Positions 1-26,232 of a DNA stretch of 32,242 bases are shown here, piece by piece. The notes below the pieces were generated by a model. That model ran no database searches. It was given only the letters and a program-made list of their open reading frames with translations, and was not told the origin of the DNA. Source of the stretch: a bacterium. Lineage in GTDB: Bacteria > Patescibacteriota > Minisyncoccia > Phycocordibacterales > Zambryskibacteraceae. The first letter of the stretch is position 1. Each line of letters begins with the position of its first letter. The position numbers and the translations under genes are program-made. The stretch lies in NCBI GenBank assembly GCA_030674415.1, contig JAUSGP010000006.1, positions 1-32,242 of the forward strand, read 5' to 3'.

Positions 1-1187
<1,187 letters not shown>

Positions 1188-4950: not shown

Positions 4951-5838
4951 TTACTTTAGTTCAAGAGTTTTTCCATCTGTTTCGAATTTTATAGTCCCGC
5001 TCTCGGCGGTACTGATTGTTTTAGCTCCGACTTTTTGCAAAATATTTATAACTTCTTTGTGAGGATGGCCGTAGGTGTTGTCTTTGCCGGCGGAAATCAC
5101 TACGTACTCGGGCGTGACTGCTTCGGCATATGTAAGTGAAGTAGAGGTGCGCGAACCATGATGTCCTGCTTTCAAAACATCGGAATCCAAGATTTGAGAA
5201 TCAAGTTTAAGCAAAATATTTTCCGTCTTGATCGGCGAGTCGCCGGTAAGAAGAAAGGATGATTCGCCGTAGACAAGCTTGGCCACGATCGAGGCGTCAT
5301 TGGTCTCCCAATTTGAAACATCTTGGTTGGGAAAGAGAATCATCAGCCTTACGCCGTCGCCGAAGTTTATTACCTGTCCCCTTCTGGCGAGGATGGTCGG
5401 AATCTTTTTCTCCTCTACCCTCTTTCTCAATTCATCATCGATTTCGTTATCGGATTCAACTCCGGGAGAGATAAGCAGGCCAACATCAAAACGACTGACC
5501 ACTTCCGGCAAACCCCCGATGTGGTCCGCATCTGGATGTGTGGCTATGATCACATCGATGCGCTTGTCTCCAAATGACAAGGTCTTACCAAGTTCACTGA
5601 TAATCTGCCGATTACGTCCGCCATCGACCAGAACTCTGCCGTGTGTCGGCGAGTCGATGAGTATGGCATCACCCTGCCCAATGTCGAAGAAGTAGACTTT
5701 CAAAATATCCCCAGGATTCTTTTGCCACACAAGCACCCAGACCGCGAGATTAAGTGCGATTAAAGTTACGAGCAGGATCTCTCTCCACCGCTTCTTGAAT
5801 GTTTCTTTGTATACCACCGTCTTAAGTATATAATTCAA
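4951..5838 (-). CDS. ComEC/Rec2-type metallo-beta-lactamase domain protein (C-terminal ComEC module encoded as a separate gene)
   Basis: N-terminal TM, then FFDIGQGDAILI…, ATHPDADHIGG (HxHxDH-type motif) and KAGHHGS. ORF-track start is a TTG at 5838. An alternative GTG at 5817 has TATACT 7 nt upstream. Confidence 0.85.
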   Translation of the reverse strand: MNYILKTVVYKETFKKRWREILLVTLIALNLAVWVLVWQKNPGDILKVYFFDIGQGDAILIDSPTHGRVLVDGGRNRQIISELGKTLSFGDKRIDVIIATHPDADHIGGLPEVVSRFDVGLLISPGVESDNEIDDELRKRVEEKKIPTILARRGQVINFGDGVRLMILFPNQDVSNWETNDASIVAKLVYGESSFLLTGDSPIKTENILLKLDSQILDSDVLKAGHHGSRTSTSLTYAEAVTPEYVVISAGKDNTYGHPHKEVINILQKVGAKTISTAESGTIKFETDGKTLELK

Positions 5839-6377
5839 TGATGGCTAAACAATTCGAGGAAAAGAAATTTAATATCCCCGCGCTCAAAGGTATTTCAGCA
5901 AAAACGATCGAGGAACACCTTAAGCTCTATGCTGGTTATGTGAAAAACTCTAATGATTTATTGGGAGGAGAAGAATACAACCGCCGATTTCCATTTGAGT
6001 TTAACGGCATGAGGAATCATGAAATTTATTTCTCGCACTTTGAAGGTGGGGCCAAGTCTCTAGCAACCGACAGTGAGTTTGTTAAAGCTGGATTTGATTT
6101 AGAAAAGTTTAAAGCCTTAGCCCTAACACGTGGGGTAGGTTGGGCTATCGTGTATTACGACCCGATATCCAAACAACTTATACATAACTGGGTCGATGAA
6201 CAGCATTTAGGCCAGCTCTCTTCCTGCATCCCTATCCTTGCTCTCGACATGTGGGAGCATTCGTATGTCGCTGACTACCAGCCTTCTGGCAAAAAGCAGT
6301 ATGTTGAAGACTTCTTCGAAAACCTTAACTGGAAATCTTGCGAAGAGAATTTTGCCAACGCCACACGATTACAATAA
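5838..6377 (+). CDS. Fe/Mn superoxide dismutase family protein (short form)
   Basis: LDMWEHSYVADY matches the DxWEH(A)YY motif. Candidate upstream His ligands lie in IEEHLKLYAGYV and NGMRNHEIYF. TATAAT (5829-5834) lies 6 nt before the second ATG (5841), which may be the true start. Confidence 0.75.
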   Translation: MMAKQFEEKKFNIPALKGISAKTIEEHLKLYAGYVKNSNDLLGGEEYNRRFPFEFNGMRNHEIYFSHFEGGAKSLATDSEFVKAGFDLEKFKALALTRGVGWAIVYYDPISKQLIHNWVDEQHLGQLSSCIPILALDMWEHSYVADYQPSGKKQYVEDFFENLNWKSCEENFANATRLQ

Positions 6378-7734
6378 GTGCGAGATAGGCTAAAGCTATT
6401 ATCGACCAGTGGACCGGCGGCACAGCCACAGAAGCAAACGAGAGATTGCCGAGGACATGTGCGACAAGAAGTATCCACCCCAAGAGAAGGTGCGAAAGAT
6501 ATGATAATGGCCACGCGATAATCAGACTGACGTAGCCAAGAAGAGTCGCGAGGAATCCTATGAGCATAGTGAACGGAATGATAAGAAGCACCAAGATATT
6601 GGCCGGAAGCGAGACGAGCGAGAAGTCACCCATCGAATAGATAAGAAGTGGTAGCACAGTAATCTGCGTACCGATAGTAGTGGCGACAATGGAACGAAAC
6701 TCCCAACGTTCCGGAAGTTTTTCTAAATATTTTTCTGCAATCGGCACGACATAAATGAGCGCTAGAGTCGCAAGGAATGAAAGTTGGAAGGACGGATCGA
6801 AAACCAGAATCTTCGGATTTTCCAATAGCATGAGAAACCCTGCCAGTAGAAGCGCTCTGGGAGCCGAGAACTTGCGCCGAGTCATCTTAGCCGCCACTAC
6901 TGCGGTAACCATAAGCGAGGCGCGTACTACTGTTGCTTCTGCTCCGGTCATGATGACGAACATGAGAATGCCGAGAAGTGCGACAGCATTATTCCTGAAG
7001 AGCTTCCTCATAAAGTCAGCGATGATAGTGATGTTAAAGCCCGAGAGCACTACGATGTGAATGATGCCCGCGCGGCGGAATTCTTCGAGCAGCCCCGCTG
7101 GCATGGCATCGCGGCCAGCCACTAGAAGTCCCGCCAAGAGACTCGAATAGGGCTCGGCCAAGATTTCCCTAATCTTATTCACAAAACTCCTTTTGATCTT
7201 AAGAAGTATCGCCTTCACCACACTACCTTCTCCGCTTCCTAGCACTTCAATCTTGGCGAAGCTCATGGTGTAGTAAATATCGTCTTTAGAAAGATATTTT
7301 GCGTAATCAAATGGTCGACCACCGTCTTCATCTTCTATAATGCCTGGCTCTTTAAGCTTCCCTTCTACATTTACCCTGTCTCCATATTGAACAGGGCTGT
7401 ATAAACCAGTACTGACCAGAACTTTTTCATTATTATTGGAATGGAGAACAAAACGTGTCGCATTCTCTCTCTGTTCTGGCTCGCTCACTACGACACCTGT
7501 CTCACCGGGAACAATTGTTTCGTGGAAATCTTTAATAGAATAGCGCAAACAACCCAAACTAAAAGAAATAAGGGCTAGAGAAATAAACAGAACTTCGATC
7601 TTTCGATCTGAAACAATTATCGCAAGACCAATAATTAAAATACAAAGTGAAACAAGCGGAGAAATGAAAACGAAAGAAGAGACCAGAATGCCGAAAACAA
7701 AACTAAAGATGACAATAAGAATTTCGCGATCCAT
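6325..7734 (-). CDS. comEC: ComEC/Rec2 competence channel, N-terminal (DUF4131-like) plus Competence domain, lacking the MBL domain
   Basis: Polytopic membrane protein with an OB-like soluble insert. RRAGIIHIVVLSGFNITII resembles the ComEC HLLAISGLH motif. Start placed at MDREIL (7734); the ORF track extends to 7785, inside rnhA. Confidence 0.85.
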   Translation of the reverse strand: MDREILIVIFSFVFGILVSSFVFISPLVSLCILIIGLAIIVSDRKIEVLFISLALISFSLGCLRYSIKDFHETIVPGETGVVVSEPEQRENATRFVLHSNNNEKVLVSTGLYSPVQYGDRVNVEGKLKEPGIIEDEDGGRPFDYAKYLSKDDIYYTMSFAKIEVLGSGEGSVVKAILLKIKRSFVNKIREILAEPYSSLLAGLLVAGRDAMPAGLLEEFRRAGIIHIVVLSGFNITIIADFMRKLFRNNAVALLGILMFVIMTGAEATVVRASLMVTAVVAAKMTRRKFSAPRALLLAGFLMLLENPKILVFDPSFQLSFLATLALIYVVPIAEKYLEKLPERWEFRSIVATTIGTQITVLPLLIYSMGDFSLVSLPANILVLLIIPFTMLIGFLATLLGYVSLIIAWPLSYLSHLLLGWILLVAHVLGNLSFASVAVPPVHWSIIALAYLALIVIVWRWQNSLRKISS

Positions 7735-8179
7735 TGTAGAGAGAGATGGTAAGGTCGTCGGCGAAGGAGGTGGCGATCTCATCACAACGCTCGTTTAATT
7801 CATGACCCGAGTGGCCAGCGACATATTTCCAGTCTATTTCTTTGCCATCACTTGTGAGAATCAGTTTCTGCCAAAGATCCTGGTTAAGCACCGGCTTCTT
7901 GGAGGCTGTTCTCCAACCTCTTTTCTGCCAGCCTGTGACCCAGAGCGTGATGCCTTTCATAACGTATTCGGAATCTGTGTAAAGCTCGATTCTGGCGTCA
8001 CTCAAGGTACTGACAAATTCAAGAGCCTTGATAGCCCCCATAAGTTCCATGCGGTTATTAGTAGTACGATCTTCTCGACCGCCGAGTTCCACTACCCGGA
8101 CATCGTCCATGATGATGGCAGCCCAGCCGCCCGGGCCGGGATTACCTCTCGAAGAGCCGTCCGTATAAATGGTAATCAT
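7703..8179 (-). CDS. rnhA: Ribonuclease HI
   Basis: IYTDGSSRGNPGPGGWAAI, TNNRMELMGAIKAL, YTDSEYV and GHSGHELNERCDEIA are RNase HI catalytic-region motifs. TAAACT (rc of 8186-8191) lies 6 nt upstream of the ATG. Confidence 0.92.
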   Translation of the reverse strand: MITIYTDGSSRGNPGPGGWAAIIMDDVRVVELGGREDRTTNNRMELMGAIKALEFVSTLSDARIELYTDSEYVMKGITLWVTGWQKRGWRTASKKPVLNQDLWQKLILTSDGKEIDWKYVAGHSGHELNERCDEIATSFADDLTISLYNGSRNSYCHL

Positions 8180-19047: not shown

Positions 19048-21405
19048 CTAAAATTCTTCAAATTGCGGATCGAAGTTGATCTGGGCAGTAGCCGCTGGGC
19101 AACTGGATTGGATAGAGTCCGTGTCGGTAATAGTTACGACAGCAGTCTTCTGTCCGATGGTACTGTAAGTCCGGTTATAAGGATTGCTACTAGGAGCAGG
19201 ACTGGTCGGGATATTGGTCCCGCTCCACGAGTAAGTGAATGGTGCTGTCCCTCCAGAGAAAGTGGCTGTCCAAGTCACACTCTCTCCGACGAAAGCGGTC
19301 GAGGGGGAGGCAACGCAGGAGACAGTAATTGGACTTCCTGAAACGATCAGGTTGAAACTCGTTTGCTTGCTTAAGGGAGAACCTGTTACCGTAATCAGAT
19401 AAGTGCCGAGGGGAGTGCTGGGACTGACCGTAAAGGTAATGACCGAGGTGCACGCCGGAGAACACGAGCTCGGCGCGATGGAATACGAAGTGCCCGAAGG
19501 TACCCCCGAGACAGAGAGGGTGATAGGCTCTGTCGTACCAGTCAAGAGAGTCTTAGTAATAGTGTTTTGAGTGAAGGCGTTGCTATTAGTTTTGGTCACA
19601 TTGGAGTTGCCGGAATTGGAAAGCGAGTAATTGAAGGGCGGTGGCGCCACGCTGAAATTAACTCGCGCCGTCTTGTCGCCATCGATGAGAGCCGAGCAGG
19701 TAGCGCTCTGACCACCACAGATCGTGCCACTCCCGGGCAACCATTTGTCAAACTCGTATCCGGAAGCGGGCGTGGCGATGAGAGTAATCCAGCCGATATT
19801 AGAAGAGTAGGTCTCGCTACAATCCCCCGGACAACTAATGCCAGGCCCGCTTATGGTGCCGGAGCCAGAATTCACGGAAGCAGTAACGGTATAAGTAGTG
19901 GTGACAAAGTTGGCTGTCACACTCTTGGCCGCATCCATAGTCACCGTGCAACCACCACTGCCGGAGCACGCGCCGGACCAGCCACTAAAGCCAGAACCAG
20001 ATGAGGGAGAAGGGGTGAGCGTAACAGCAGTATTGTAGTTATAAACCTCCGAACAATCACTCCCACAACTCACACCGGCGGGACTTGAGGTCACGGTGCC
20101 AGAACCTGCGCCAGTTTTGGAAACAGTCAGAGTGTAAACAAGAGTGGCACAGCTACTGCCATTCCAAGCTGTGCCTACGGCACAAGTTACAGAGGACCCA
20201 GAAATAGTTTCTTGATCAAGTAAAACGCCATTATTATAAAGATAGAAAGTTTCACCGCCCCATTTAATAGCGAAGGGAACATTGGTACCAGAATTCCCAG
20301 TCGCTACCGTCACATTGGTCGGTTTGGTGATTACAGAAGTGTCGATAGGATTTGTCGTGGTCCAAGAGAAATTGATATTACAGCTACTGGCCCCCGCAGC
20401 AATAACACAAGAAGAAGAAGCGGGAGTAAGGGTACCAGTACTCGGGATGACCTGAATGTCGCCGATGGTCAGCGCCCCCTGCGCGCCAGCACCAGCCGAG
20501 CCGGCATAGCCGAAGTTCGAGCCGCCTCCCCCACCACCACCGGCTCCCCGATTACCACCAGCAAGACTCACCCCGCCGCCCGCGCCACCACCACCAGCGC
20601 GCTGACTACCATTGCCACCTATTGCAGTTCTCGAAACTCCGGCGGCACCGGGTACCAAAGAAGCATTCTCGTCATTGTCGTATTCATAGTACCAACCAGC
20701 GCCGCCAGCACCGCCAGTTTCAGAAAGACCATCTCCGCCCGCCGCACCACTTGAGTTGTTGCCTGTATCATCACCGTGGCCAGCGCCTCCTCCGCCGCCG
20801 GTACCGTTACCGGCGGCGGACCCCTTCTTGCCGGGATTATGACTGGGGGCGGCGCCATTTCCCCCATCACCACCCTTCACCCCTCCAGAACCAACGTTAG
20901 CCGAGCCGCCCGTGCCACCCACCGAGTGATCGTAGGATTCCACAGGAGCTTGTCCGCCACCACCGCCACCCAAGCTCAAATAAACCGTACCTCCGGAAAT
21001 CTGGAAGGTGGTGCTCCCGCCAGCACTACCAACACTGCCGAAAGAACTGCCACCGACGCCAGCAGCACCGACAACAGCAGTGTAGGTTGTCCCCGTCTCA
21101 AGAGTGACGGTAACTCCATTTAGATTTGTCGCTCCGCCGCCACCGCCGGCTCCGCCCCATCCAGTAGAAGAGTCGTAACGACCACCTCCGCCGCCACCAC
21201 CACCAGCCACACCCTTCACAACAATAGAAAGCTTGGCATTGACCGTAATGGTATAAGTACCGGGAGTAGTGAAATTTAAAGTGCCGGCGGTAGCGGCATG
21301 GGTACCGGAAGCCGGTCCACTGTAGGTAATGGTGGGGGTCACGGCAGAAGCTAATCCCGGATTCATCACCACCAAGAGCGCTAATATAATAACGGCAGTA
21401 CGCAT
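19048..21405 (-). CDS. Secreted 785-aa modular protein: glycine-rich domain, Ig-like region, two InlB-B-repeat-like modules, PKD-like C-terminus ending FDPQFEEF
   Basis: Signal peptide MRTAVIILALLVVMNPGLASA. LNFTTPGTYTITV…VVKGVAGGGGGGGG opens about 300 aa of poly-Gly-rich sequence. YTLTVSKTGAGSGTVTSSP…FSGWSG…VTANF and a second copy follow. VTWTATFSGGTAPFTYSWSG is PKD-like. The stop lies 9 nt before the pilB start. Confidence 0.85.
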   Translation of the reverse strand: MRTAVIILALLVVMNPGLASAVTPTITYSGPASGTHAATAGTLNFTTPGTYTITVNAKLSIVVKGVAGGGGGGGGRYDSSTGWGGAGGGGGATNLNGVTVTLETGTTYTAVVGAAGVGGSSFGSVGSAGGSTTFQISGGTVYLSLGGGGGGQAPVESYDHSVGGTGGSANVGSGGVKGGDGGNGAAPSHNPGKKGSAAGNGTGGGGGAGHGDDTGNNSSGAAGGDGLSETGGAGGAGWYYEYDNDENASLVPGAAGVSRTAIGGNGSQRAGGGGAGGGVSLAGGNRGAGGGGGGGSNFGYAGSAGAGAQGALTIGDIQVIPSTGTLTPASSSCVIAAGASSCNINFSWTTTNPIDTSVITKPTNVTVATGNSGTNVPFAIKWGGETFYLYNNGVLLDQETISGSSVTCAVGTAWNGSSCATLVYTLTVSKTGAGSGTVTSSPAGVSCGSDCSEVYNYNTAVTLTPSPSSGSGFSGWSGACSGSGGCTVTMDAAKSVTANFVTTTYTVTASVNSGSGTISGPGISCPGDCSETYSSNIGWITLIATPASGYEFDKWLPGSGTICGGQSATCSALIDGDKTARVNFSVAPPPFNYSLSNSGNSNVTKTNSNAFTQNTITKTLLTGTTEPITLSVSGVPSGTSYSIAPSSCSPACTSVITFTVSPSTPLGTYLITVTGSPLSKQTSFNLIVSGSPITVSCVASPSTAFVGESVTWTATFSGGTAPFTYSWSGTNIPTSPAPSSNPYNRTYSTIGQKTAVVTITDTDSIQSSCPAATAQINFDPQFEEF
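19051..19897. repeat. Dispersed repeat copy 1 (about 840 bp), paralogous to 24237-25076
   Basis: Recognisable DNA identity, for example gatcgaagttgatctg near the 3' ends of both genes and ctacaatcccccggacaact in both. Encodes the shared C-terminal module of about 280 aa. Confidence 0.85.
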
Positions 21406-21424: not shown

Positions 21425-22453
21425 ATGAAGAAAAAATTTTATATCAACATTCTCATTCTCGGGGTATTTCTTGTCGGATCGGTCATACTGATTACCCGTA
21501 CCTCATCGAATGCTGCACCGGAAATAGAAAAGATTAAAAATCTCACCAATGCCGAAGCTCAGGGGGTGGAATTAAAAAAACTTTTGGAAAGAGTTGGTCC
21601 CACCGAAGCCCAGGAGCAAATGCTCCACTCGGGACTCCCCTTCACTGGGCAAACTCACCTACTTATACATGTCATCGGGGATTATATCTACAACCAATAC
21701 GGCCCAGAGGGGCTCGCCCTGTGTCGAGACTACTTCCTTTCGGCCTGTTATCACGGCTTTATCATCAACACTTTGGGCGATCACGGCATGGACGGGATGC
21801 AAGATGCGATGGAGAGATGCAATTCTGCACCGCTGGGTGTAGCAACGCAATGCGCGCATGCCGCCGGACACGGCTTCACAGCTTGGCATGACTATGATCT
21901 TCTTAAGGGACTCTCAATGTGCGATGAATTAGGTGAGAGGGTTGTAGATTTTACTTACTACAACTGTTATGACGGCGTCTTTATGGAAAATGTCTGGGGC
22001 GTCCACAACGGCACACCTTCGGAGAAAAGATGGGTTAAAACCGATGACATCTACTATCCCTGTAATGACTCGCGCATCCCGGAAAAATATTTGAAGGGCT
22101 GTTGGGCCAACCAGGCCACTCTCATCTACCAGCATTTCAAGGGCGACCTGAAGAAAACTGCCGAAGCCTGCGACGCTGTGAAGAACCCAAGCTACCAAGA
22201 AACCTGTTACAACAACTTCTCCCGCCAGATTCACCCTCTAACCAAGGGAGATAAGGAAAAAGTTTTCTCCTTGTGCGCCAATGCCACAGGGCAGAAGTGG
22301 CAAGACGAGTGCGTGCTGACCAACATGGTCGCCTATTTCTCGGTCGGAGACAGAATCTTGCCTGAACAAATCTGTAATATGGCCAGAAGCGAGTTAAAAG
22401 ACCGTTGCCTTGAAAGACTCGACGGCATGATAAAGTATTATAGTGGTGAATAA
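21425..22453 (+). CDS. Membrane-anchored or secreted Cys/His-repeat protein (paralog A, 342 aa), function unknown
   Basis: Start at MKKKFYINILILGVFLVG (ATG 21425, with TATTTT 6 nt upstream). Motifs ACYHG, QCAHAAGHG, NCYDGVFMEN and YYPCN are shared with the next gene. Confidence 0.8.
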   Translation: MKKKFYINILILGVFLVGSVILITRTSSNAAPEIEKIKNLTNAEAQGVELKKLLERVGPTEAQEQMLHSGLPFTGQTHLLIHVIGDYIYNQYGPEGLALCRDYFLSACYHGFIINTLGDHGMDGMQDAMERCNSAPLGVATQCAHAAGHGFTAWHDYDLLKGLSMCDELGERVVDFTYYNCYDGVFMENVWGVHNGTPSEKRWVKTDDIYYPCNDSRIPEKYLKGCWANQATLIYQHFKGDLKKTAEACDAVKNPSYQETCYNNFSRQIHPLTKGDKEKVFSLCANATGQKWQDECVLTNMVAYFSVGDRILPEQICNMARSELKDRCLERLDGMIKYYSGE

Positions 22454-23723
22454 AATCTCTCTTTTCGTATTCCTACTATTTACTGTCTACTGTCTATTAC
22501 CCACTAATGCCTTCGCTCATGGCGACGCACATGGAGAACTGATCATCCGCATGACGGATAACGGCTTTGAGCCTAAAGAGCTGACAGTTACCGAAGGCGA
22601 CGAGATACTTTTCATAAACAACGACGACACGGACCGCTGGCCGGCCTCAAACTTCCACCCTTCTCACACTCTTTATCCCGAATTCGATCCCAAGATGCAT
22701 GTGAAGCCCGGGGAATCATGGAAATTTATTTTTGAAAAAACGGGGACATGGAGGATGCACGACCATCTCATCCCCCACATGACCGGTACAATTGTGGCAC
22801 TTGAGGTTTCTACCACTACCAACACCGAGACCACAACGCCGGAAACCAAGCCAAGTCTCTGGGCTAAGTTCAAAAATTTCCTCCTCAAATTATTCGAGAG
22901 GAAACCGGCGGAAGAAGCCTCCTATGATGACCATGCCAAGGCCCATTTGAAGGGCCAGCTTTTTTTCAAAGAATACGGTTTAGATGGAGTAGCTTATTGC
23001 ACTAGAGAGGCGGCCTTCGGTTGCTATCATGGGCTCTTGGAAGTGGCCTTTGCTGGCCAGAGCGAAGAGAAATACCGGGATAATCTCCTCGAAGCCGAGG
23101 GGAGTTGTCGCAAACTAGGGCGTGAGACTTCAGGAAGCTTCGCGAGCTGTATCCACGGCATAGGCCACGGCACGGCGACGTATCGAGAGCACGCTCTCGC
23201 AGTAGCACTTACGGATTGCGATACTTTAAGCCAGAAGATCAGGACTTACTGTCATGACGGCGTCTTTATGGAATTCTCGATCAGCGCGCCGTCAAGCTTT
23301 TATCATAAAGAAAATCCTATTTACCCTTGCGATGTCGCCGACGAAAGTTACAAAGTCGCCTGCGCTCGTTCTCAAGTCCAAGTCATGAGACTGCGCTTCG
23401 GTTTCGACACCAATACTATTATAGAGACGTGTGAAGAGACCGGGAATCAAAAAATTATTTATAACTGCATTGACTCTCTAGGCTACTTCATCGCCAAGAG
23501 AGCATCTGGCGAAGCAAGCAAAATCATCACCAGTTGCAATGAGATTAAGGGGGAGGCGGCCGCGGCGCAATGCGTAGCCGCGGCCGCCGGTGAACTAGTC
23601 TTCCAAGACACGCTAGGCTGGCAACAATCGGCCCCAGCAGTTTGTCAAATGCTTAGAGAGCCGTACCAACAGAAATGCCTAGAGCGAGTAGCTCAAGTTA
23701 AGCAATCATACGGACGAGACTAG
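22443..23723 (+). CDS. Secreted cupredoxin-like domain fused to a Cys/His-repeat domain (paralog B, 426 aa)
   Basis: Signal peptide …LLPTNAFA|HGDAHG. TVTEGDEILFINNDD…WRMHDHLIPHMTGTIVAL has a cupredoxin-like layout, but no Cys at the position expected for the copper ligand. Thr-rich linker. Then GCYHG, SCIHGIGHG, YCHDGVFMEF and IYPCD, matching paralog A. GTG start overlaps the upstream gene by 11 nt. Confidence 0.8.
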   Translation: MVNKISLFVFLLFTVYCLLPTNAFAHGDAHGELIIRMTDNGFEPKELTVTEGDEILFINNDDTDRWPASNFHPSHTLYPEFDPKMHVKPGESWKFIFEKTGTWRMHDHLIPHMTGTIVALEVSTTTNTETTTPETKPSLWAKFKNFLLKLFERKPAEEASYDDHAKAHLKGQLFFKEYGLDGVAYCTREAAFGCYHGLLEVAFAGQSEEKYRDNLLEAEGSCRKLGRETSGSFASCIHGIGHGTATYREHALAVALTDCDTLSQKIRTYCHDGVFMEFSISAPSSFYHKENPIYPCDVADESYKVACARSQVQVMRLRFGFDTNTIIETCEETGNQKIIYNCIDSLGYFIAKRASGEASKIITSCNEIKGEAAAAQCVAAAAGELVFQDTLGWQQSAPAVCQMLREPYQQKCLERVAQVKQSYGRD

Positions 23724-23725
23724 AA

Positions 23726-24223
23726 TTATTTTATAAGATACGAGAGCTGGACCAGAGTCTTACCTCCATTAGCACTTATCGCCACCGAGAGATTAGCCTC
23801 TACTTTAGTACCGAAGAGGGCTCTGACCGGAGCGTTGGTACTGCCTTCGGTGATCTGGTAACCGGCGTTAGTCAAATAACTTTTGTATTCGGCGTATTTC
23901 TGAGCCACCGTCTTATCGCTCCGATAACTGACAGAAAGCTGACTCGCGTCCTGATTAGGATATTCGGTAGTGGCACTTTCTAGAATCACTCCCACCTCCA
24001 AAGGAATTTCTGCTGGGAAACCAGCCGGGGCTCTTAGCGTGCCATTGACCGCTGGAGTTTCTGTAACCACGACTACCATTTCCTGACTTCCGTTTTGAGT
24101 ATCAGTTCCCTCTTCAACTTCGACAGGAGTACTCTTCATCTTGAAGAATAGAAATCCTGCTCCGATAATAAGTATGATGCCGAGAACGGCTGAAATATTT
24201 TTAATGTTTGGTGATGTGTCCAT
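23726..24223 (-). CDS. Hypothetical N-terminally anchored 165-aa protein
   Basis: Single N-terminal TM (AVLGIILIIGAGFLFF) and an extracytoplasmic domain with no recognised motif. Lies directly downstream of the 447-aa surface protein. Confidence 0.6.
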   Translation of the reverse strand: MDTSPNIKNISAVLGIILIIGAGFLFFKMKSTPVEVEEGTDTQNGSQEMVVVVTETPAVNGTLRAPAGFPAEIPLEVGVILESATTEYPNQDASQLSVSYRSDKTVAQKYAEYKSYLTNAGYQITEGSTNAPVRALFGTKVEANLSVAISANGGKTLVQLSYLIK

Positions 24224-24233
24224 AATAATTTAA

Positions 24234-25577
24234 TTAAAATTCCTCAAAATTGGGATCGAAGTTGATCTGAACGGTAGCTGGAGCGCAAGTAGTGATAAGA
24301 CCATCGGCATCGGTCACTCTAAGTGTAGCAGTTTTCTGTCCGATGGTGCTGTAGGTACGACTATAAGGGTTGGTAGCGGGAGCCGGATTGGTCAGGATAT
24401 TGGTACCGCTCCATGAGTAGGAGAGAGGTGGTGTGCCGCCAGAGACCGAGCCGGACCAGGTGACATTCTGGCCCACGAGCGTGGTGGGCGGATTAGCGAA
24501 ACAGGTGGCCGTAGTGGGGTTACCAGAGATGACCAGGTTGAAGTTGGTGGTCTTACCGAGTGGAGCGCCAGTTATAGTGATCGGGTATGTGCCGACAGGA
24601 GCACTTGAAGGAACGGTGAAGGTGACGGTAGACGAGCATGTCGGATTGCAAGGGTTAGAACTAACAGAGTACGAAACTCCCGAGGGTGTGCCGAAGACAG
24701 CTAGAGTAACCGACTGGCTGGGGCCGCCAGAAAGAGTTCTGGTGATAATGTTTTGAGTGAAGGCATTGCCATTGGTCTTAGCCACGTTGGAATTGCCGGA
24801 ATTCGAGAGACTGTAATCGAAGGCCGGTACCGGGGTGAAATTCACTCGTGCCGTCTTGTCAGCGTCGACGAGCGCCGAGCAGGTAGCACCCTGTCCGCCG
24901 CAGATAGTACCGTTCGAGGGAATCCAGTTATTGAATGAGTAGCCACTAGCCGGAGTTGCAATCAAGGTGATCCAGGTGCCGACATTATAAGTCTCACTAC
25001 AATCCCCCGGACAACTGATACCCGGTCCGGTGATAGTACCAGAGCCGGAGTTAATAGAAACAGAGACGGTATAAGTGGTGGGAGGTGGCGTAGGATAAAG
25101 ATAAGATGGTGTGGGGTAATCGTATTCCTCTTCCGGAGTTGGGTAGTTGTATGGAGGTGTAGGGTAGATATAAGACGGCGTGGGATAATTATAAGAAGGA
25201 GTGGGATAGTCGTATAAAGCAGAAGGACTTTGATAAGAAGGGGTGGGATATTCGTAAGAAGGAGGTGGGGCAGGATAATCATAAGGTGGAACTGGGTAGT
25301 CATATGGTTCAGGGTCTGGATCCGAGCAATAGCTTGGGTCATAACCCTCACATCCGGGGTTACAAATGTCATAGCATGCCCCATCTCCACCGCCGCCGTC
25401 ATCACATTGATCAGGATTACCATAGCAATCGAGATCTGCATCACACTCCCAATAACAGCCCGATTGAGCCATGGCAACATCTGGCGAAGGAATAGCTGGG
25501 GTCACAATGATAGCGGCTATAATCATTGCGGACGCGAGTATCAAAGCAGAAAATATATTTTTCTTTTCTTTTTTCAT
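24234..25577 (-). CDS. Secreted 447-aa modular protein: acidic Cys-rich module, YPTPSY tandem repeats, InlB-B-repeat-like module, PKD-like C-terminus ending FDPNFEEF
   Basis: Signal/anchor KKNIFSALILASAMIIAAIIV. CYWECDADLDCYGNPDQCDDGGGGDGACYDICNPGCEGYDPSYC. At least 8 copies of (Y/D)YP(T/A/V)P(S/P)Y. The C-terminal 280 aa are colinear with the 785-aa protein. Confidence 0.85.
   Translation of the reverse strand: MKKEKKNIFSALILASAMIIAAIIVTPAIPSPDVAMAQSGCYWECDADLDCYGNPDQCDDGGGGDGACYDICNPGCEGYDPSYCSDPDPEPYDYPVPPYDYPAPPPSYEYPTPSYQSPSALYDYPTPSYNYPTPSYIYPTPPYNYPTPEEEYDYPTPSYLYPTPPPTTYTVSVSINSGSGTITGPGISCPGDCSETYNVGTWITLIATPASGYSFNNWIPSNGTICGGQGATCSALVDADKTARVNFTPVPAFDYSLSNSGNSNVAKTNGNAFTQNIITRTLSGGPSQSVTLAVFGTPSGVSYSVSSNPCNPTCSSTVTFTVPSSAPVGTYPITITGAPLGKTTNFNLVISGNPTTATCFANPPTTLVGQNVTWSGSVSGGTPPLSYSWSGTNILTNPAPATNPYSRTYSTIGQKTATLRVTDADGLITTCAPATVQINFDPNFEEF
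24237..25076. repeat. Dispersed repeat copy 2, paralogous to 19051-19897
   Basis: See copy 1. Both copies are on the minus strand (direct orientation), about 5.2 kb apart. Confidence 0.85.
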
Positions 25578-25578
25578 A

Positions 25579-26226
25579 TCAATTTTTGGATACTCTCTGC
25601 ACTACCACCGCTTCAGTGGAATTGTTATCACTTGGGTACATCACTATTCTGAACAAATAATCCCCCTTTTCTAACAGAAGCATTATGGCGTCATCTTCAG
25701 CATAGACATGTCCCGCCACTAGACGGAAATAATTGGGAAGAATAGAATTTTTGTAATATTGGAATGTATCAAGTAGGTTGGTGTCATAATTAAATACAGC
25801 CCTTACCCCTGTAGAACCGTCCTCGAAGGTCATTTGAGATACTGCCAAGGGATCATGATTAATTTTAAATGGGGCTAGAGTTATAACATCTTGATCGGCC
25901 AGTACTTTTTCACTTATTATTTTGGGAATCTGGTATTGCTTGTAGCGGTCACTGGGCTCTTCTGCCTTGCGCATTATGCTCTCTATTTCAGTAGCAGATG
26001 GCCGGCCTCTTGCCCCATCAACATTTTGCGTAAGGGCATTCTCAAGAAAAGATTCTACCCCAACGCGATCAAAGGTGGTGGTGTTTGGTTGTTTGATTAT
26101 ATAAAGAAAGACAACGAGCAATAATACAATAACAATTACAAGGATTGTCGATAATTTGTGCGGTTTCTCTTGCTGGACATTAATTGGATCCGGCGATAAA
26201 GGAAGTTGTGGGCCCATCGATTCCAT
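25579..26226 (-). CDS. Hypothetical N-terminally anchored protein (about 215 aa)
   Basis: TM STILVIVIVLLLVVFLYII, no recognised domain. Start placed at the ATG at 26226, which follows a promoter with leaderless geometry. The ORF-track TTG start at 26232 falls between that -10 box and the ATG. Confidence 0.6.
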   Translation of the reverse strand: MESMGPQLPLSPDPINVQQEKPHKLSTILVIVIVLLLVVFLYIIKQPNTTTFDRVGVESFLENALTQNVDGARGRPSATEIESIMRKAEEPSDRYKQYQIPKIISEKVLADQDVITLAPFKINHDPLAVSQMTFEDGSTGVRAVFNYDTNLLDTFQYYKNSILPNYFRLVAGHVYAEDDAIMLLLEKGDYLFRIVMYPSDNNSTEAVVVQRVSKN

Positions 26227-26232
26227 AAACAA

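What the first reader, a model, noticed from the sequence alone, without database searches (positions are those of the whole stretch)
21425..23723. Tandem paralogs with a repeated Cys/His motif set, one fused to a cupredoxin-like domain that lacks the canonical Cys ligand
Both proteins share, in the same order: H-x3-H…G…C, (A/G)CYHG, (Q/S)C(A/I)H(A/G)xGHG, (N/Y)C(Y/H)DGVFME(N/F), YPC(N/D), and then several more spaced helix-like units each starting with Cys (GCWANQ, TCYNNF, ECVLTN, RCLERL in A). This looks like a Cys-punctuated alpha-repeat with a His-rich site, and I cannot assign it to a family. Paralog B adds an N-terminal cupredoxin-like domain. In that domain the usual C-x-x-H-x-x-x-x-M copper loop reads MHDHLIPHM, so His/Asp replace Cys. 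The mature N-terminus is HGDAHG. Together this suggests an extracytoplasmic metal-binding or redox function, with a Cu or Fe site different from blue-copper proteins.
Basis: partly seen in the sequence, partly recalled or inferred. Interest (0 to 1): 0.65.

Follow-up and report, generated by a model that had tools for sequence, protein, structure and literature searches.

The report
Undescribed exported histidine-ladder repeat protein pair
Two overlapping genes of an ultra-small (CPR/Patescibacteria) bacterium encode exported, disulfide-stapled helical-repeat proteins with a near-invariant histidine/methionine/glutamate ladder, one of them fused to a cysteine-free copper-protein fold. They belong to a very large protein family that no database describes, and this family is repeatedly encoded beside tyrosine/proline "thread" surface proteins in both CPR bacteria and DPANN archaea.

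Summary
A (21425-22453, 342 aa) and B (22443-23723, 426 aa) overlap by 8-11 nt and are true paralogs (BLASTP E=2e-21).

**The shared domain ("Dom").** It is about 270 aa with seven ~34-residue helix-hairpin repeats. Cys pairs are lost or shifted together, so they are most likely disulfide staples. His78/82/110/145/149, Met187 and Glu188 (A numbering) are 98-100% conserved in about 430 domain copies. Internal profile alignment and coevolution place them at equivalent positions of consecutive repeats, forming a ladder or pocket.

**B's head.** It is a real cupredoxin with no Cys. Asp107 sits at the blue-copper Cys position within H106-D-H108...H112.

**Family status.** Dom matches nothing in Pfam, NCBIfam or PDB, by sequence or by fold. 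It has about 2,660 cluster representatives in CPR bacteria and DPANN archaea, including Cup-Dom-Dom fusions.

**Gene neighbourhood.**
- 37 of 83 Dom-selected loci carry an ORF with three or more YxYP(T/S)P motifs.
- Of 13 metagenome loci selected only for that repeat (eight or more motifs), 12 carry Dom.
- In this genome the only such protein (24234-25577) lies 511 bp from B.

**Best reading (about 0.35).** An extracellular copper-type metalloprotein pair doing tyrosine-directed chemistry on the thread protein. Metal binding and activity are untested.

The parts
21425..22453 (+). Gene A: 342-aa membrane-anchored Dom-only protein (A-type)
   Evidence: ORF and translation. 318 homologues, all unnamed or 'hypothetical' and without Pfam domains. 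AF2 pLDDT 94.3.
21428..21496 (+). A residues 2-24: N-terminal hydrophobic helix (signal anchor or uncleaved signal peptide)
   Evidence: Helix 2-24 in the AF2 model; hydrophobic run INILILGVFLVGSVILI. Read by eye, no signal-peptide predictor was run.
21632..22444 (+). A residues 70-340: the Dom domain, seven ~34-residue helix-hairpin repeats, each with one Cys pair (100/108, 132/143, 166/181, 213/226, 249/261, 284/296, 317/328)
   Evidence: Invariant Cys columns. Co-loss or shift of pairs. Internal repeat alignments at 81-89% probability for two of the three adjacent segment pairs, 49% for the third. DCA couplings C100-C108 and C317-C328 and solenoid periodicity.
21656..21988 (+). A residues 78-188: His/Met/Glu ladder (H78, H82, H110, H145, H149, D183, M187, E188)
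   Evidence: 98-100% conserved in about 430 domain copies; D183 about 69%. H110, H145 and D183 sit at the same repeat position (Cys+2), and H149 and M187 at Cys+6. Couplings G111/F112/I114-A146, G150-D183 and T152-N189. H82R, H110R, H145Y and M187Y change together in degenerate copies.
22443..23723 (+). Gene B: 426-aa secreted Cup-Dom protein (B-type), overlapping A's end by 8-11 nt
   Evidence: 226 homologues, many with PF13473, some named 'plastocyanin' by JGI. AF2 pLDDT 87.9.
22443..22517 (+). B residues 1-25: Sec-type signal peptide; predicted cleavage AFA|H leaves His26 as the first mature residue
   Evidence: Sequence. An [AGS]-H dipeptide stands just upstream of the first strand in 91 of 115 homologues. 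The cleavage site was read by eye.
22518..22808 (+). B residues 26-122: Cys-free cupredoxin domain with WPASNxH72PxH75 and H106-D107-H108-x3-H112-M113
   Evidence: PF13473. Profile hits to amicyanin (1e-6) and to a Nitrosopumilus copper enzyme with a C-terminal cupredoxin domain, 9cck (2e-7), with D107 aligned to amicyanin Cys92. Foldseek TM 0.7-0.8. Both His motifs are lost together in four homologues.
22905..23714 (+). B residues 155-424: Dom domain of B (H164, H168, H196, H238, H242, D272, M276, E277 and seven Cys pairs)
   Evidence: BLASTP to A. Invariant columns of alignment A2, whose numbering is one lower. Dom profile hit at 22920-23717.
24234..25577 (-). Probable partner: 447-aa secreted protein with a Cys-rich acidic head, seven YxYPTP heptads, an InlB-B-repeat and a weak PKD-like match (below Pfam's cut-off)
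   Evidence: It is the only Tyr/Pro-rich ORF in the 485-kb genome and holds 7 of the genome's 8 six-frame Y.YP[TS]P motifs. The link to A/B is inferred from neighbourhood statistics.
25071..25313 (-). The YxYP(T/S)P repeat tract of the 447-aa protein

Best explanation
A and B are a translationally coupled pair of extracytoplasmic metalloproteins built on an undescribed domain (Dom). Dom is a seven-repeat alpha-solenoid in which each helix hairpin is stapled by a disulfide. The first four repeats present a ladder of near-invariant His, with Met and Glu, that forms a one- or two-metal site, most probably for copper.

B adds a Cys-free, His-rich cupredoxin whose site is of the type-2 or His-brace kind rather than blue-copper.

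The pair belongs to a conserved CPR/DPANN gene module whose other member is a secreted 'thread' protein made of YxYP(T/S)P repeats, here the 447-aa neighbour. I think the most likely mechanism is that the solenoid groove holds the extended Tyr/Pro thread and the copper sites oxidise its tyrosines. The product would be dityrosine or isodityrosine cross-links, or DOPA. This would cure or anchor a surface fibre, in the way extensin peroxidases or mussel tyrosinases treat YxY/Pro-rich proteins.

**Shown:** paralogy, export signals, folds, conservation, disulfide co-variation and the gene-neighbourhood link in both directions.

**Inferred:** metal binding, the identity of the metal, physical A-B association, and any chemistry on tyrosine.
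For: **Family and fold**
- establish the paralogy, family size and models.

**Functional site**
- H78, H82, H110, H145, H149, M187 and E188 are 98-100% conserved over about 430 copies that average about 28% identity.
- They occupy equivalent positions of successive repeats.
- Their neighbouring residues co-evolve.
- Four of them change together in degenerate copies.
- A near-invariant Met beside a His cluster is typical of copper sites (established knowledge of CopC, CusF, PHM and type-1 sites).

**Cupredoxin partner**
- Cupredoxin fusion recurs across the family.
- The Cup domain is followed by a B-type Dom in 41 of 50 cases.
- Cup-Dom-Dom fusions occur in Aenigmatarchaeota, Microgenomates and others, which suggests that B-like and A-like units work together.
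- In the cupredoxin, both His motifs are lost together, and Asp107 replaces the Cys ligand.

**Thread link, forward test**
- 47 of 83 Dom-selected loci have a Tyr/Pro-rich ORF (33 of 45 loci of at least 12 kb), mostly less than 1 kb away and often on the same strand.
- 37 of 83 have three or more Y.YP[TS]P motifs, including 5 of 8 archaeal loci.

**Thread link, reverse test**
- 12 of 13 metagenome loci chosen only by the repeat's DNA pattern, with eight or more motifs, carry Dom, and most carry Cup.

**Thread link, own genome**
- It has one such protein, 511 bp from B.
- The thread proteins' non-repeat parts differ (DUF5667, CWB2, Cys modules, InlB/PKD), so what is conserved is the repeat itself.

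**Supporting context**
- The genome encodes a DsbA-like oxidoreductase and an Fe/Mn-SOD-like protein. These are compatible with disulfide formation and oxygen exposure.
Against: - No metal, activity or structure was measured. I had no access to model coordinates, so the His-to-His geometry is inferred, not seen.
- There is no detectable similarity to tyrosinase, laccase, peroxidase or any other oxidase.
- Dom occurs 10-12 times in tandem in giant proteins with the ladder intact. That arrangement is more typical of binding modules than of enzymes.
- Eight related genomes have Dom but no detectable thread repeat of the window's type. Several close Paceibacteria loci also lack one, so the coupling is not obligate.
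- Many CPR and DPANN organisms live with little oxygen.
- No HMA-type copper-handling protein was found in this 80%-complete genome.
- The N-terminal His of B is present in only about 80% of homologues.
- The strongest DCA coupling (I81-A107) may be a subfamily signal rather than a contact.
Confidence: 0.35

Rival explanations
1. Dom is a non-catalytic, metal-stabilised or metal-dependent binding module. Its groove binds the YxYP(T/S)P thread (or a host-surface ligand) and so assembles or anchors a surface fibre, in the way ARM or TPR solenoids bind extended peptides or cohesins bind dockerins. The cupredoxin would serve only as a metal-loaded structural or adaptor head.
For: - Tandem arrays of 2-12 Dom copies occur in single polypeptides, and up to 10 paralogous genes sit in a row.
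- The solenoid architecture has a conserved W/N/Q stripe in later repeats (C226-W-x-N-Q).
- The same neighbourhood evidence applies as for the main reading.
- The location is beside the pilus operon and other adhesin-like proteins.
Against: - A ladder of five His plus Met plus Glu held at 98-100% is unusual for a pure peptide-binding groove.
- The regular presence of a His-rich cupredoxin points to metal chemistry.
- No binding was tested.
Confidence: 0.25
2. A and B form a metal-acquisition or metal-buffering system for a cell with a minimal genome. It would be analogous to EfeO/EfeM (cupredoxin plus helical metal-binding domain, and a cupredoxin-less paralogue) or to YcnI/CopC-type extracellular Cu(II) binders. 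The ladder would capture Cu, Fe or Zn for hand-over to a transporter.
For: - The architecture parallels EfeO (Cup plus alpha domain) with a Cup-less paralogue.
- B's N-terminal His after the signal peptide, together with H-x-H, resembles His-brace copper binders. YcnI is a cupredoxin-fold example (abstracts of 10.1101/2021.06.11.448128 and PMC12154828, listed).
- Multi-copy modules are also typical of scavenging receptors.
Against: - No Peptidase_M75 signal.
- No EfeU/FTR1, CopD or other permease was seen next to the pair in the window or among the recurrent neighbours.
- Distribution is patchy: 9 of 61 relatives, which is odd for an essential uptake route.
- This reading does not explain the thread-protein neighbourhood.
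Confidence: 0.15
3. A and B are purely structural envelope proteins (an S-layer-like or wall-associated scaffold). Their conserved His, Met and Glu residues serve folding or packing, and their proximity to thread proteins reflects only the general clustering of surface-protein genes.
For: - They sit in a surface-protein island between two large exoproteins and next to the type IV pilus genes.
- Distribution is accessory and patchy.
Against: - Adjacency with the thread repeat holds across bacterial classes and in archaea, and also in the reverse test.
- The later repeats of the same scaffold need no His.
- Buried structural positions are rarely His or Met at 99-100%.
Confidence: 0.1
4. Dom is a metallohydrolase (for example a Zn peptidase or wall hydrolase) that processes thread proteins or host envelope.
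For: His/Glu clusters are common in Zn hydrolases. One giant family member carries a GH3 domain.
Against: - No HExxH or other known hydrolase motif.
- No fold match.
- Tandem multi-copy arrangement.
- The partnership with a cupredoxin is unexplained.
Confidence: 0.05

Closest known systems
Single-domain cupredoxins (amicyanin, plastocyanin, the Nitrosopumilus purple cupredoxin 5fc9, the C-terminal cupredoxin domain of NirK (6hbe) and of the Nitrosopumilus copper enzyme 9cck; Pfam PF13473)
   Same: B residues 26-122 have the cupredoxin fold. Evidence: Pfam above cut-off, profile E of 1e-6 to 2e-7, Foldseek TM 0.7-0.8.
   Different: The domain has no Cys at all. Asp107 occupies the Cys-ligand position, flanked by His106 and His108 (an H-D-H-x3-H pattern like the H-C-H-x3-H of multicopper oxidases). 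There is an extra WPASNxHPxH loop and a frequent N-terminal His. It cannot be a blue (type-1) electron-transfer site.
EfeO / EfeM of the EfeUOB iron-uptake system
   Same: The architectural logic is the same: a periplasmic or extracellular cupredoxin fused to an all-helical metal-binding domain, plus a cupredoxin-less paralogue.
   Different: There is no homology to the M75 (imelysin-like) domain by sequence or by fold search. No EfeU or EfeB neighbours were seen. Dom is a disulfide-stapled solenoid, and it is linked to Tyr/Pro thread proteins.
Helicobacter cysteine-rich proteins (HcpB/HcpC) and other disulfide-bridged Sel1-like repeat proteins
   Same: Repeats of about 34-36 residues built as helix hairpins, each carrying one disulfide, in exported proteins.
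   Different: No Sel1 (PF08238) signal in 69 members, and these proteins are not among the fold hits. Hcp proteins have no His/Met/Glu ladder and no cupredoxin partner.
Plant extensins with extensin peroxidases; mussel foot proteins with tyrosinase (functional analogy only)
   Same: Secreted Pro-rich proteins with periodic YxY or Tyr motifs are encoded or produced together with a metal oxidase that cross-links or hydroxylates the Tyr.
   Different: No homology of any component, and no modification has been shown here. The candidate enzyme belongs to no known oxidase family.
Histidine-brace copper sites in cupredoxin-like folds (PmoB/AmoB CuB, CopC, YcnI)
   Same: A His as the first mature residue, plus an H-x-H on a beta strand, in an extracellular cupredoxin-like domain.
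   Different: The N-terminal His is present in only about 80% of homologues. The geometry is untested. The additional invariant residues His72, His75 and His112 have no counterpart in those sites.

Membership tests
Cupredoxin fold (Pfam PF13473 Cupredoxin_1) | Greek-key beta-sandwich recognised by the family profile and by structure | tested here: met
   PF13473 E=7.6e-7, 29.6 bits against a cut-off of 27. Foldseek probability 1.0, TM 0.7-0.8 to amicyanin, plastocyanin and 5fc9.
Type-1 (blue) copper proteins | Ligand set His ... Cys-x(n)-His-x(n)-Met | tested here: not met
   There is no Cys in B residues 26-122. In the profile alignment, Asp107 aligns with amicyanin Cys92, and the amicyanin His95 column holds Ile110.
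Multicopper oxidases / NirK | Two to six cupredoxin domains with four H-x-H motifs and H-C-H-x3-H forming T1 plus a trinuclear (or T2) centre | tested here: not met
   There is one cupredoxin domain and one H-D-H-x3-H motif. No Cu-oxidase family reaches its cut-off.
EfeO/EfeM (Peptidase_M75, imelysin-like) | M75 helical domain with the HxxE metal motif | tested here: not met
   No PF09375 hit at E<=1 for A or B, nor at E<=0.1 in 69 members. No imelysin among the Foldseek hits.
EfeO/EfeM (Peptidase_M75, imelysin-like) | Operon with the EfeU permease and EfeB peroxidase | tested here: not met
   The neighbours are pilus, exoprotein, VWA-like, GH5 and Exo_endo_phos genes. No permease appears among the recurrent neighbour clusters.
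Sel1-like repeat / Hcp proteins | Match to the Sel1 repeat profile | tested here: not met
   No PF08238 hit in A, B or 69 homologues.
Sel1-like repeat / Hcp proteins | One disulfide per helix-hairpin repeat | tested here: met
   There are seven Cys pairs flanking helix turns. C100/C108 are lost together in 9 of 10 cases. C132 shifts by one turn or is lost with C143. This is inferred from covariation, not observed chemically.
Type-3 copper proteins (tyrosinase, hemocyanin) | Tyrosinase/hemocyanin profile; six His from a four-helix bundle | tested here: not met
   No PF00264 or hemocyanin hit and no fold hit. Dom has five near-invariant His plus Met and Glu.
Histidine-brace copper proteins (PmoB CuB, CopC, YcnI, LPMO) | His as the first residue of the mature protein, coordinating through its amine and imidazole | tested here: inconclusive
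   B reads ...NAFA|HGDAHG. 91 of 115 homologues have [AGS]-H at that place. Cleavage and coordination are not testable with these tools.

The most novel reading that the evidence does not exclude
CPR bacteria and DPANN archaea share a prokaryotic counterpart of the extensin or mussel-glue principle. It would be a dedicated extracellular copper system with two enzyme parts, a Cys-free His-rich cupredoxin and a disulfide-stapled His-ladder solenoid of a new fold family. This system would oxidise the tyrosines of co-encoded YxYP(T/S)P thread proteins to cross-link or render adhesive a surface fibre used for attachment to the host cell. A and B of this window would be its enzyme pair, and the 447-aa neighbour its substrate.
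Probability: 0.25. Interest if true: 0.85.

Novelty: categorically new. Interest (0 to 1): 0.7.

Why it matters
Dom is one of the larger protein families without any description: about 2,660 clusters at 50% identity. It is concentrated in the ultra-small episymbiotic CPR bacteria and DPANN archaea, whose surface biology is largely unknown and decides how they attach to and feed on hosts.

A near-invariant five-His/Met/Glu ladder on a new scaffold is regularly partnered with a cupredoxin that has lost its cysteine. If real, this would be a new kind of extracellular metal centre.

Its two-way genomic link to Tyr/Pro thread proteins turns "function unknown" into a concrete and cheap experiment: recombinant proteins, copper, and a synthetic heptad peptide. 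The cross-domain distribution also documents gene exchange between CPR and DPANN lineages.

Tried and rejected
**Searches that found nothing**
- Sequence searches of A, of B and of the 69-sequence Dom profile against PDB gave nothing for Dom.
- Foldseek of the A model against PDB returned only generic ARM, HEAT, TPR and designed solenoids at E>0.01 and TM about 0.2. I therefore reject assignment to any solved fold family, including LanC-like toroids, imelysins, Hcp/SLR proteins and tyrosinase bundles.
- Pfam on all 69 members gave only scattered single chance hits. NCBIfam gave nothing.
- Three literature searches for CPR/Patescibacteria/Saccharibacteria plus cupredoxin or copper, one for Tyr/Pro-rich CPR proteins, and one for histidine-brace cupredoxins found no description of the family.

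**Ideas rejected**
- Cys residues as Cu(I)-thiolate ligands (Csp-like storage). Rejected because the pairs are lost or shifted together and are replaced by hydrophobic residues.
- FEEF C-terminal tails as the conserved link to A/B. Rejected because thread proteins in other loci end differently.

**Technical failures and limits**
- The first attempt to scan genomes with the wide alignment failed for lack of a conserved stretch. A narrower alignment worked.
- The genome-level co-occurrence test in 60 relatives was weak. Dom is in 9 genomes, and a window-like repeat is in 2, only one of which (the own genome) has both. The repeat search is probably insensitive to other repeat variants.
- VKOR and HMA searches in the own genome were negative.
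- I could not obtain coordinates of the AF2 models, so no distances were measured.
Full report
**1. What is there**

The window is a contig of a 485-kb, 80%-complete genome. Its closest relatives are Paceibacteria/Minisyncoccia and Zambryskibacteria MAGs.

Gene A runs 21425-22453 (+) and gives 342 aa. Gene B runs 22443-23723 (+) and gives 426 aa from GTG, or 425 aa in the database form. A's stop overlaps B's start by 8-11 nt, so the two are co-transcribed and probably translationally coupled. They are transcribed divergently from a 785-aa exoprotein gene that heads the pilB-pilC type IV pilus cluster.

A begins with a hydrophobic helix at residues 2-24. B begins with a Sec-type signal peptide ending AFA|HGDAHG. 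Both proteins are therefore extracytoplasmic.

A and B align over 300 residues at 23% identity with E=2e-21.

**2. The shared domain (Dom)**

*No described relative.* Pfam and NCBIfam give no hit for A or for B's C-terminal 270 residues. The same holds for 69 diverse homologues scanned one by one. PDB has no relative by sequence or profile.

*The family is very large.* There are 318 hits in the word-indexed search, all unnamed or 'hypothetical'. An exhaustive search gives 2,660 cluster representatives at E<=1e-3 and 1,339 at E<=1e-10, including giant proteins with 10-12 Dom copies.

*The fold is an all-helical solenoid of no solved type.* AF2 on a 69-sequence alignment gives a confident all-helical model with pLDDT 94.3 and pTM 0.88. 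Foldseek against PDB finds only generic ARM, HEAT, TPR and designed solenoids at E>0.01 and TM about 0.2.

*It is a true repeat.*
- Profile-profile comparison of adjacent segments gives 81-89% probability (E 1e-5 to 2e-6) for two of the three adjacent pairs, and 49% (E 2e-4) for the first pair.
- Mean-field DCA on 387 copies (Meff 356) shows the i to i+33..37 stacking couplings of a solenoid.

**3. The cysteines are disulfide staples**

Fourteen Cys are essentially invariant. They form seven pairs that flank helix turns: 100/108, 132/143, 166/181, 213/226, 249/261, 284/296 and 317/328.

- Where C100 or C108 is missing, both are missing in 9 of 10 copies, and both are replaced by hydrophobic residues.
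- In most of the 42 copies that lack C132, a Cys appears one helical turn earlier. In two copies C132 and C143 are lost together.
- C100-C108 and C317-C328 are among the top DCA couplings.
- The genome encodes a DsbA-like protein.

This is covariation evidence, not chemistry, but it argues against a Cys-thiolate metal cluster.

**4. The His/Met/Glu ladder**

Across about 430 domain copies that share about 28% identity, the counts are H78 428/428, H82 426/428, H110 424/429, H145 427/430, H149 431/431, M187 431/435 and E188 428/435. D183 is about 69%.

The internal repeat alignment puts C108-x-H110 on C143-x-H145, and by extension on C181-x-D183. H110, H145 and D183 therefore occupy the same position (Cys+2) in successive repeats. 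I114, H149 and M187 occupy Cys+6. H78 and H82 are spaced the same way one repeat earlier.

In a solenoid, equivalent positions stack side by side. The couplings G111/F112/I114-A146, G150-D183 and T152-N189 agree with this.

Two degenerate copies inside giant proteins carry H82R, H110R, H145Y and M187Y together while keeping H78, H149 and E188. This is probably a single evolutionary event, so it is weak but concordant evidence that these residues act together.

The later repeats keep only the Cys pairs plus a W/N/Q stripe. I could not inspect coordinates, so the claim that the ladder forms a metal site is an inference. It rests on conservation, residue chemistry (His, Met and carboxylate are typical copper ligands) and the cupredoxin partnership.

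**5. B's cupredoxin**

PF13473 is above its cut-off. A profile of 36 homologous domains hits amicyanins (1e-6) and a Nitrosopumilus copper enzyme with a C-terminal cupredoxin domain (9cck, 2e-7). The AF2 model (pLDDT 87.9) superposes on cupredoxins with TM 0.7-0.8.

The domain contains no Cys. In the amicyanin alignment:
- H106 aligns with H91.
- D107 aligns with the ligand Cys92.
- M113 aligns with Met98.
- The canonical His95 column holds Ile110.

The invariant residues are WPASNxH72-P-x-H75..YPEFD and H106-D107-H108-x-x-P-H112. Four homologues have lost both His motifs at once, which argues that the two motifs form one site. The HPxH loop has low pLDDT.

About 80% of homologues have a small residue followed by His at the signal-peptide end. 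This is the pattern of histidine-brace copper proteins, but it is not universal.

The site cannot be a blue-copper electron-transfer centre. A type-2 or His-brace kind of copper site is the natural reading, and it is unproven.

**6. Architectures and distribution**

Eighty loci from species-representative genomes show the family in these groups:
- Paceibacteria, Zambryski-, Kaiser-, Nomura-, Doudna- and Andersenbacteria.
- Saccharibacteria-labelled MAGs.
- Microgenomates (Davies-, Levy-, Curtiss-, Gottesman- and Chisholmbacteria).
- DPANN archaea, including a closed Aenigmatarchaeota chromosome (CP066684).

Several TPA MAGs labelled 'Gammaproteobacteria' carry the same operon as the Microgenomates loci. 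They are probably mislabelled; I did not test this.

Genes occur as clusters of 2-10 paralogues, and most clusters include one Cup-Dom gene. Proteins of 800-870 aa with Cup-Dom-Dom architecture recur in archaea, Microgenomates and Saccharibacteria-labelled genomes. The Dom directly after Cup is B-type in 41 of 50 cases. In the archaeal fusions the second Dom is about 50% identical to A. This is a Rosetta-stone hint that A-like and B-like units act together.

Within the window's own order the family is accessory: 9 of 61 genomes carry it.

**7. The neighbourhood link**

Clustering all ORFs of the loci showed two recurrent non-family neighbours:
- Large secreted proteins, in 39 loci.
- Membrane proteins of about 80 aa ending YKNPF..QYVNPF..YKNPF, in 32 loci.

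The large proteins are 12-15% Tyr and 12-16% Pro. They consist of YxYP(T/S)P and YYTP repeats behind unrelated heads: DUF5667, CWB2 or Cys-rich modules.

The window's own neighbour at 24234-25577 (-) is of this kind. It has a signal peptide, an acidic Cys knot, seven YxYPTP heptads, an InlB-B-repeat and a weak PKD-like match (below Pfam's cut-off).

*Forward test.*
- 47 of 83 Dom-selected loci hold a Tyr/Pro-rich ORF (33 of 45 loci of at least 12 kb).
- It usually lies less than 1 kb from a Dom gene and is often co-directional with gaps of 20-60 bp.
- 37 of 83 have three or more Y.YP[TS]P motifs, including 5 of 8 archaeal loci.

*Own genome.* One Tyr/Pro-rich ORF among 784, holding 7 of the 8 motif occurrences in the six-frame translation, 511 bp from B.

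*Reverse test.*
- A metagenome scan with a degenerate DNA pattern for two consecutive heptads gave 62 loci.
- Of the 13 loci with eight or more motifs in one ORF, 12 carry a Dom gene and 10 carry the His-rich cupredoxin, despite short flanks. Some of these loci come from the same samples, so they are not all independent.
- The motif-poor loci are unrelated sequences, many of them very low or very high in GC.

The link is not obligate. Several Paceibacteria loci and eight related genomes have Dom without a detectable thread repeat.

**8. Interpretation**

What is firmly established:
- An exported, disulfide-stapled solenoid family with a near-invariant His/Met/Glu ladder.
- Frequent fusion or pairing with a Cys-less His-rich cupredoxin.
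- A conserved genomic module with Tyr/Pro thread proteins, spanning bacteria and archaea.

My preferred mechanism (about 0.35) is copper-dependent oxidation of the thread's tyrosines, with the solenoid groove holding the extended repeat. The YxY-plus-Pro periodicity is that of extensins, where Tyr-x-Tyr forms isodityrosine. The Tyr/Pro decapeptides of mussel foot proteins are tyrosinase substrates. Both statements are established knowledge used as analogy only.

The chief rival (about 0.25) is a non-catalytic, metal-dependent binding or anchoring module. It is favoured by the tandem multi-copy proteins.

An EfeO/YcnI-like metal-acquisition role (about 0.15) fits the architecture. It does not fit the neighbours or the patchy distribution.

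An Fe/Mn-SOD-like gene in the window shows that the organism meets oxygen species. The absence of HMA-type copper proteins is neutral, because extracellular proteins load metal outside the cell.

**9. Relation to earlier notes of this scan**

I derived the thread link myself and only then looked at earlier notes. Other agents had reached the same pairing from the Microgenomates thread-protein side, and had described the same Dom family in other genomes. These are AI notes, not independent evidence.

- The extension to a Paceibacteria genome and to DPANN archaea.
- The shared YxYP(T/S)P unit.
- The two-way counts.
- The repeat-position argument for the ladder.

**10. Verdict**

The family and the module have no described counterpart.

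Noticed in passing
L020, L045, L050-L084 (e.g. L058:9112-9375): In 32 Dom loci (mainly Microgenomates-type), an ~80-aa protein sits between the first Dom gene and the thread gene. It has one N-terminal membrane helix and a C-terminal triple motif, YKNPF..QYVNPF..YKNPF. It could be a second Tyr-bearing partner or an anchor. The window has no counterpart.
   Followed up: partly
window 5838-6377 (+), between 4951-5838 (-) and 6325-7785 (-): An ORF with an Fe/Mn superoxide dismutase C-terminal domain lies on the opposite strand. It sits between a ComEC 'Competence/DUF4131' gene and a separate metallo-beta-lactamase gene, overlaps the ComEC gene's 3' end by about 50 nt and abuts the MBL gene's start codon. 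ComEC is therefore split here.
   Followed up: partly
window 19048-21405 (-) and 24234-25577 (-): The two large exoproteins that bracket A/B share a C-terminal module ending INFDP(Q/N)FEEF. Only the 447-aa one has the Tyr/Pro repeats. Thread proteins in other loci do not end in FEEF.
   Followed up: partly
G031:C5:14768-15796 and G012:C7:47116-50748 (relatives): The closest A-like genes in two genomes of the same genus are read through 1-2 in-frame TAA codons. This could reflect pseudogenes, assembly errors or strain decay of this accessory locus.
   Followed up: no
L025, L036, L040, L051-L066, L074-L082: Many TPA-assembled MAGs titled 'uncultured Gammaproteobacteria' (also one 'Chitinophagaceae' and one 'Methanosarcinales') carry the same Dom / NPF / thread / Cup-Dom-Dom operon as the named Microgenomates loci. 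The taxonomic labels are probably wrong or the contigs mis-binned.
   Followed up: no
P0130 (3580 aa): A giant family member combines 10-12 Dom copies with a C-terminal glycoside hydrolase family 3 domain and HEAT/LRV repeats. Other members (P0211, P0215) combine Dom with two cupredoxin-type regions: one scanned as PF13473 plus plastocyanin/azurin-type PF00127, the other as two PF13473 stretches.
   Followed up: partly
window 23726-24223 (-) and 25579-26232 (-): Two small membrane-anchored proteins (165 and 217 aa) without any family flank the thread gene. Their relation to the module is unknown.
   Followed up: no
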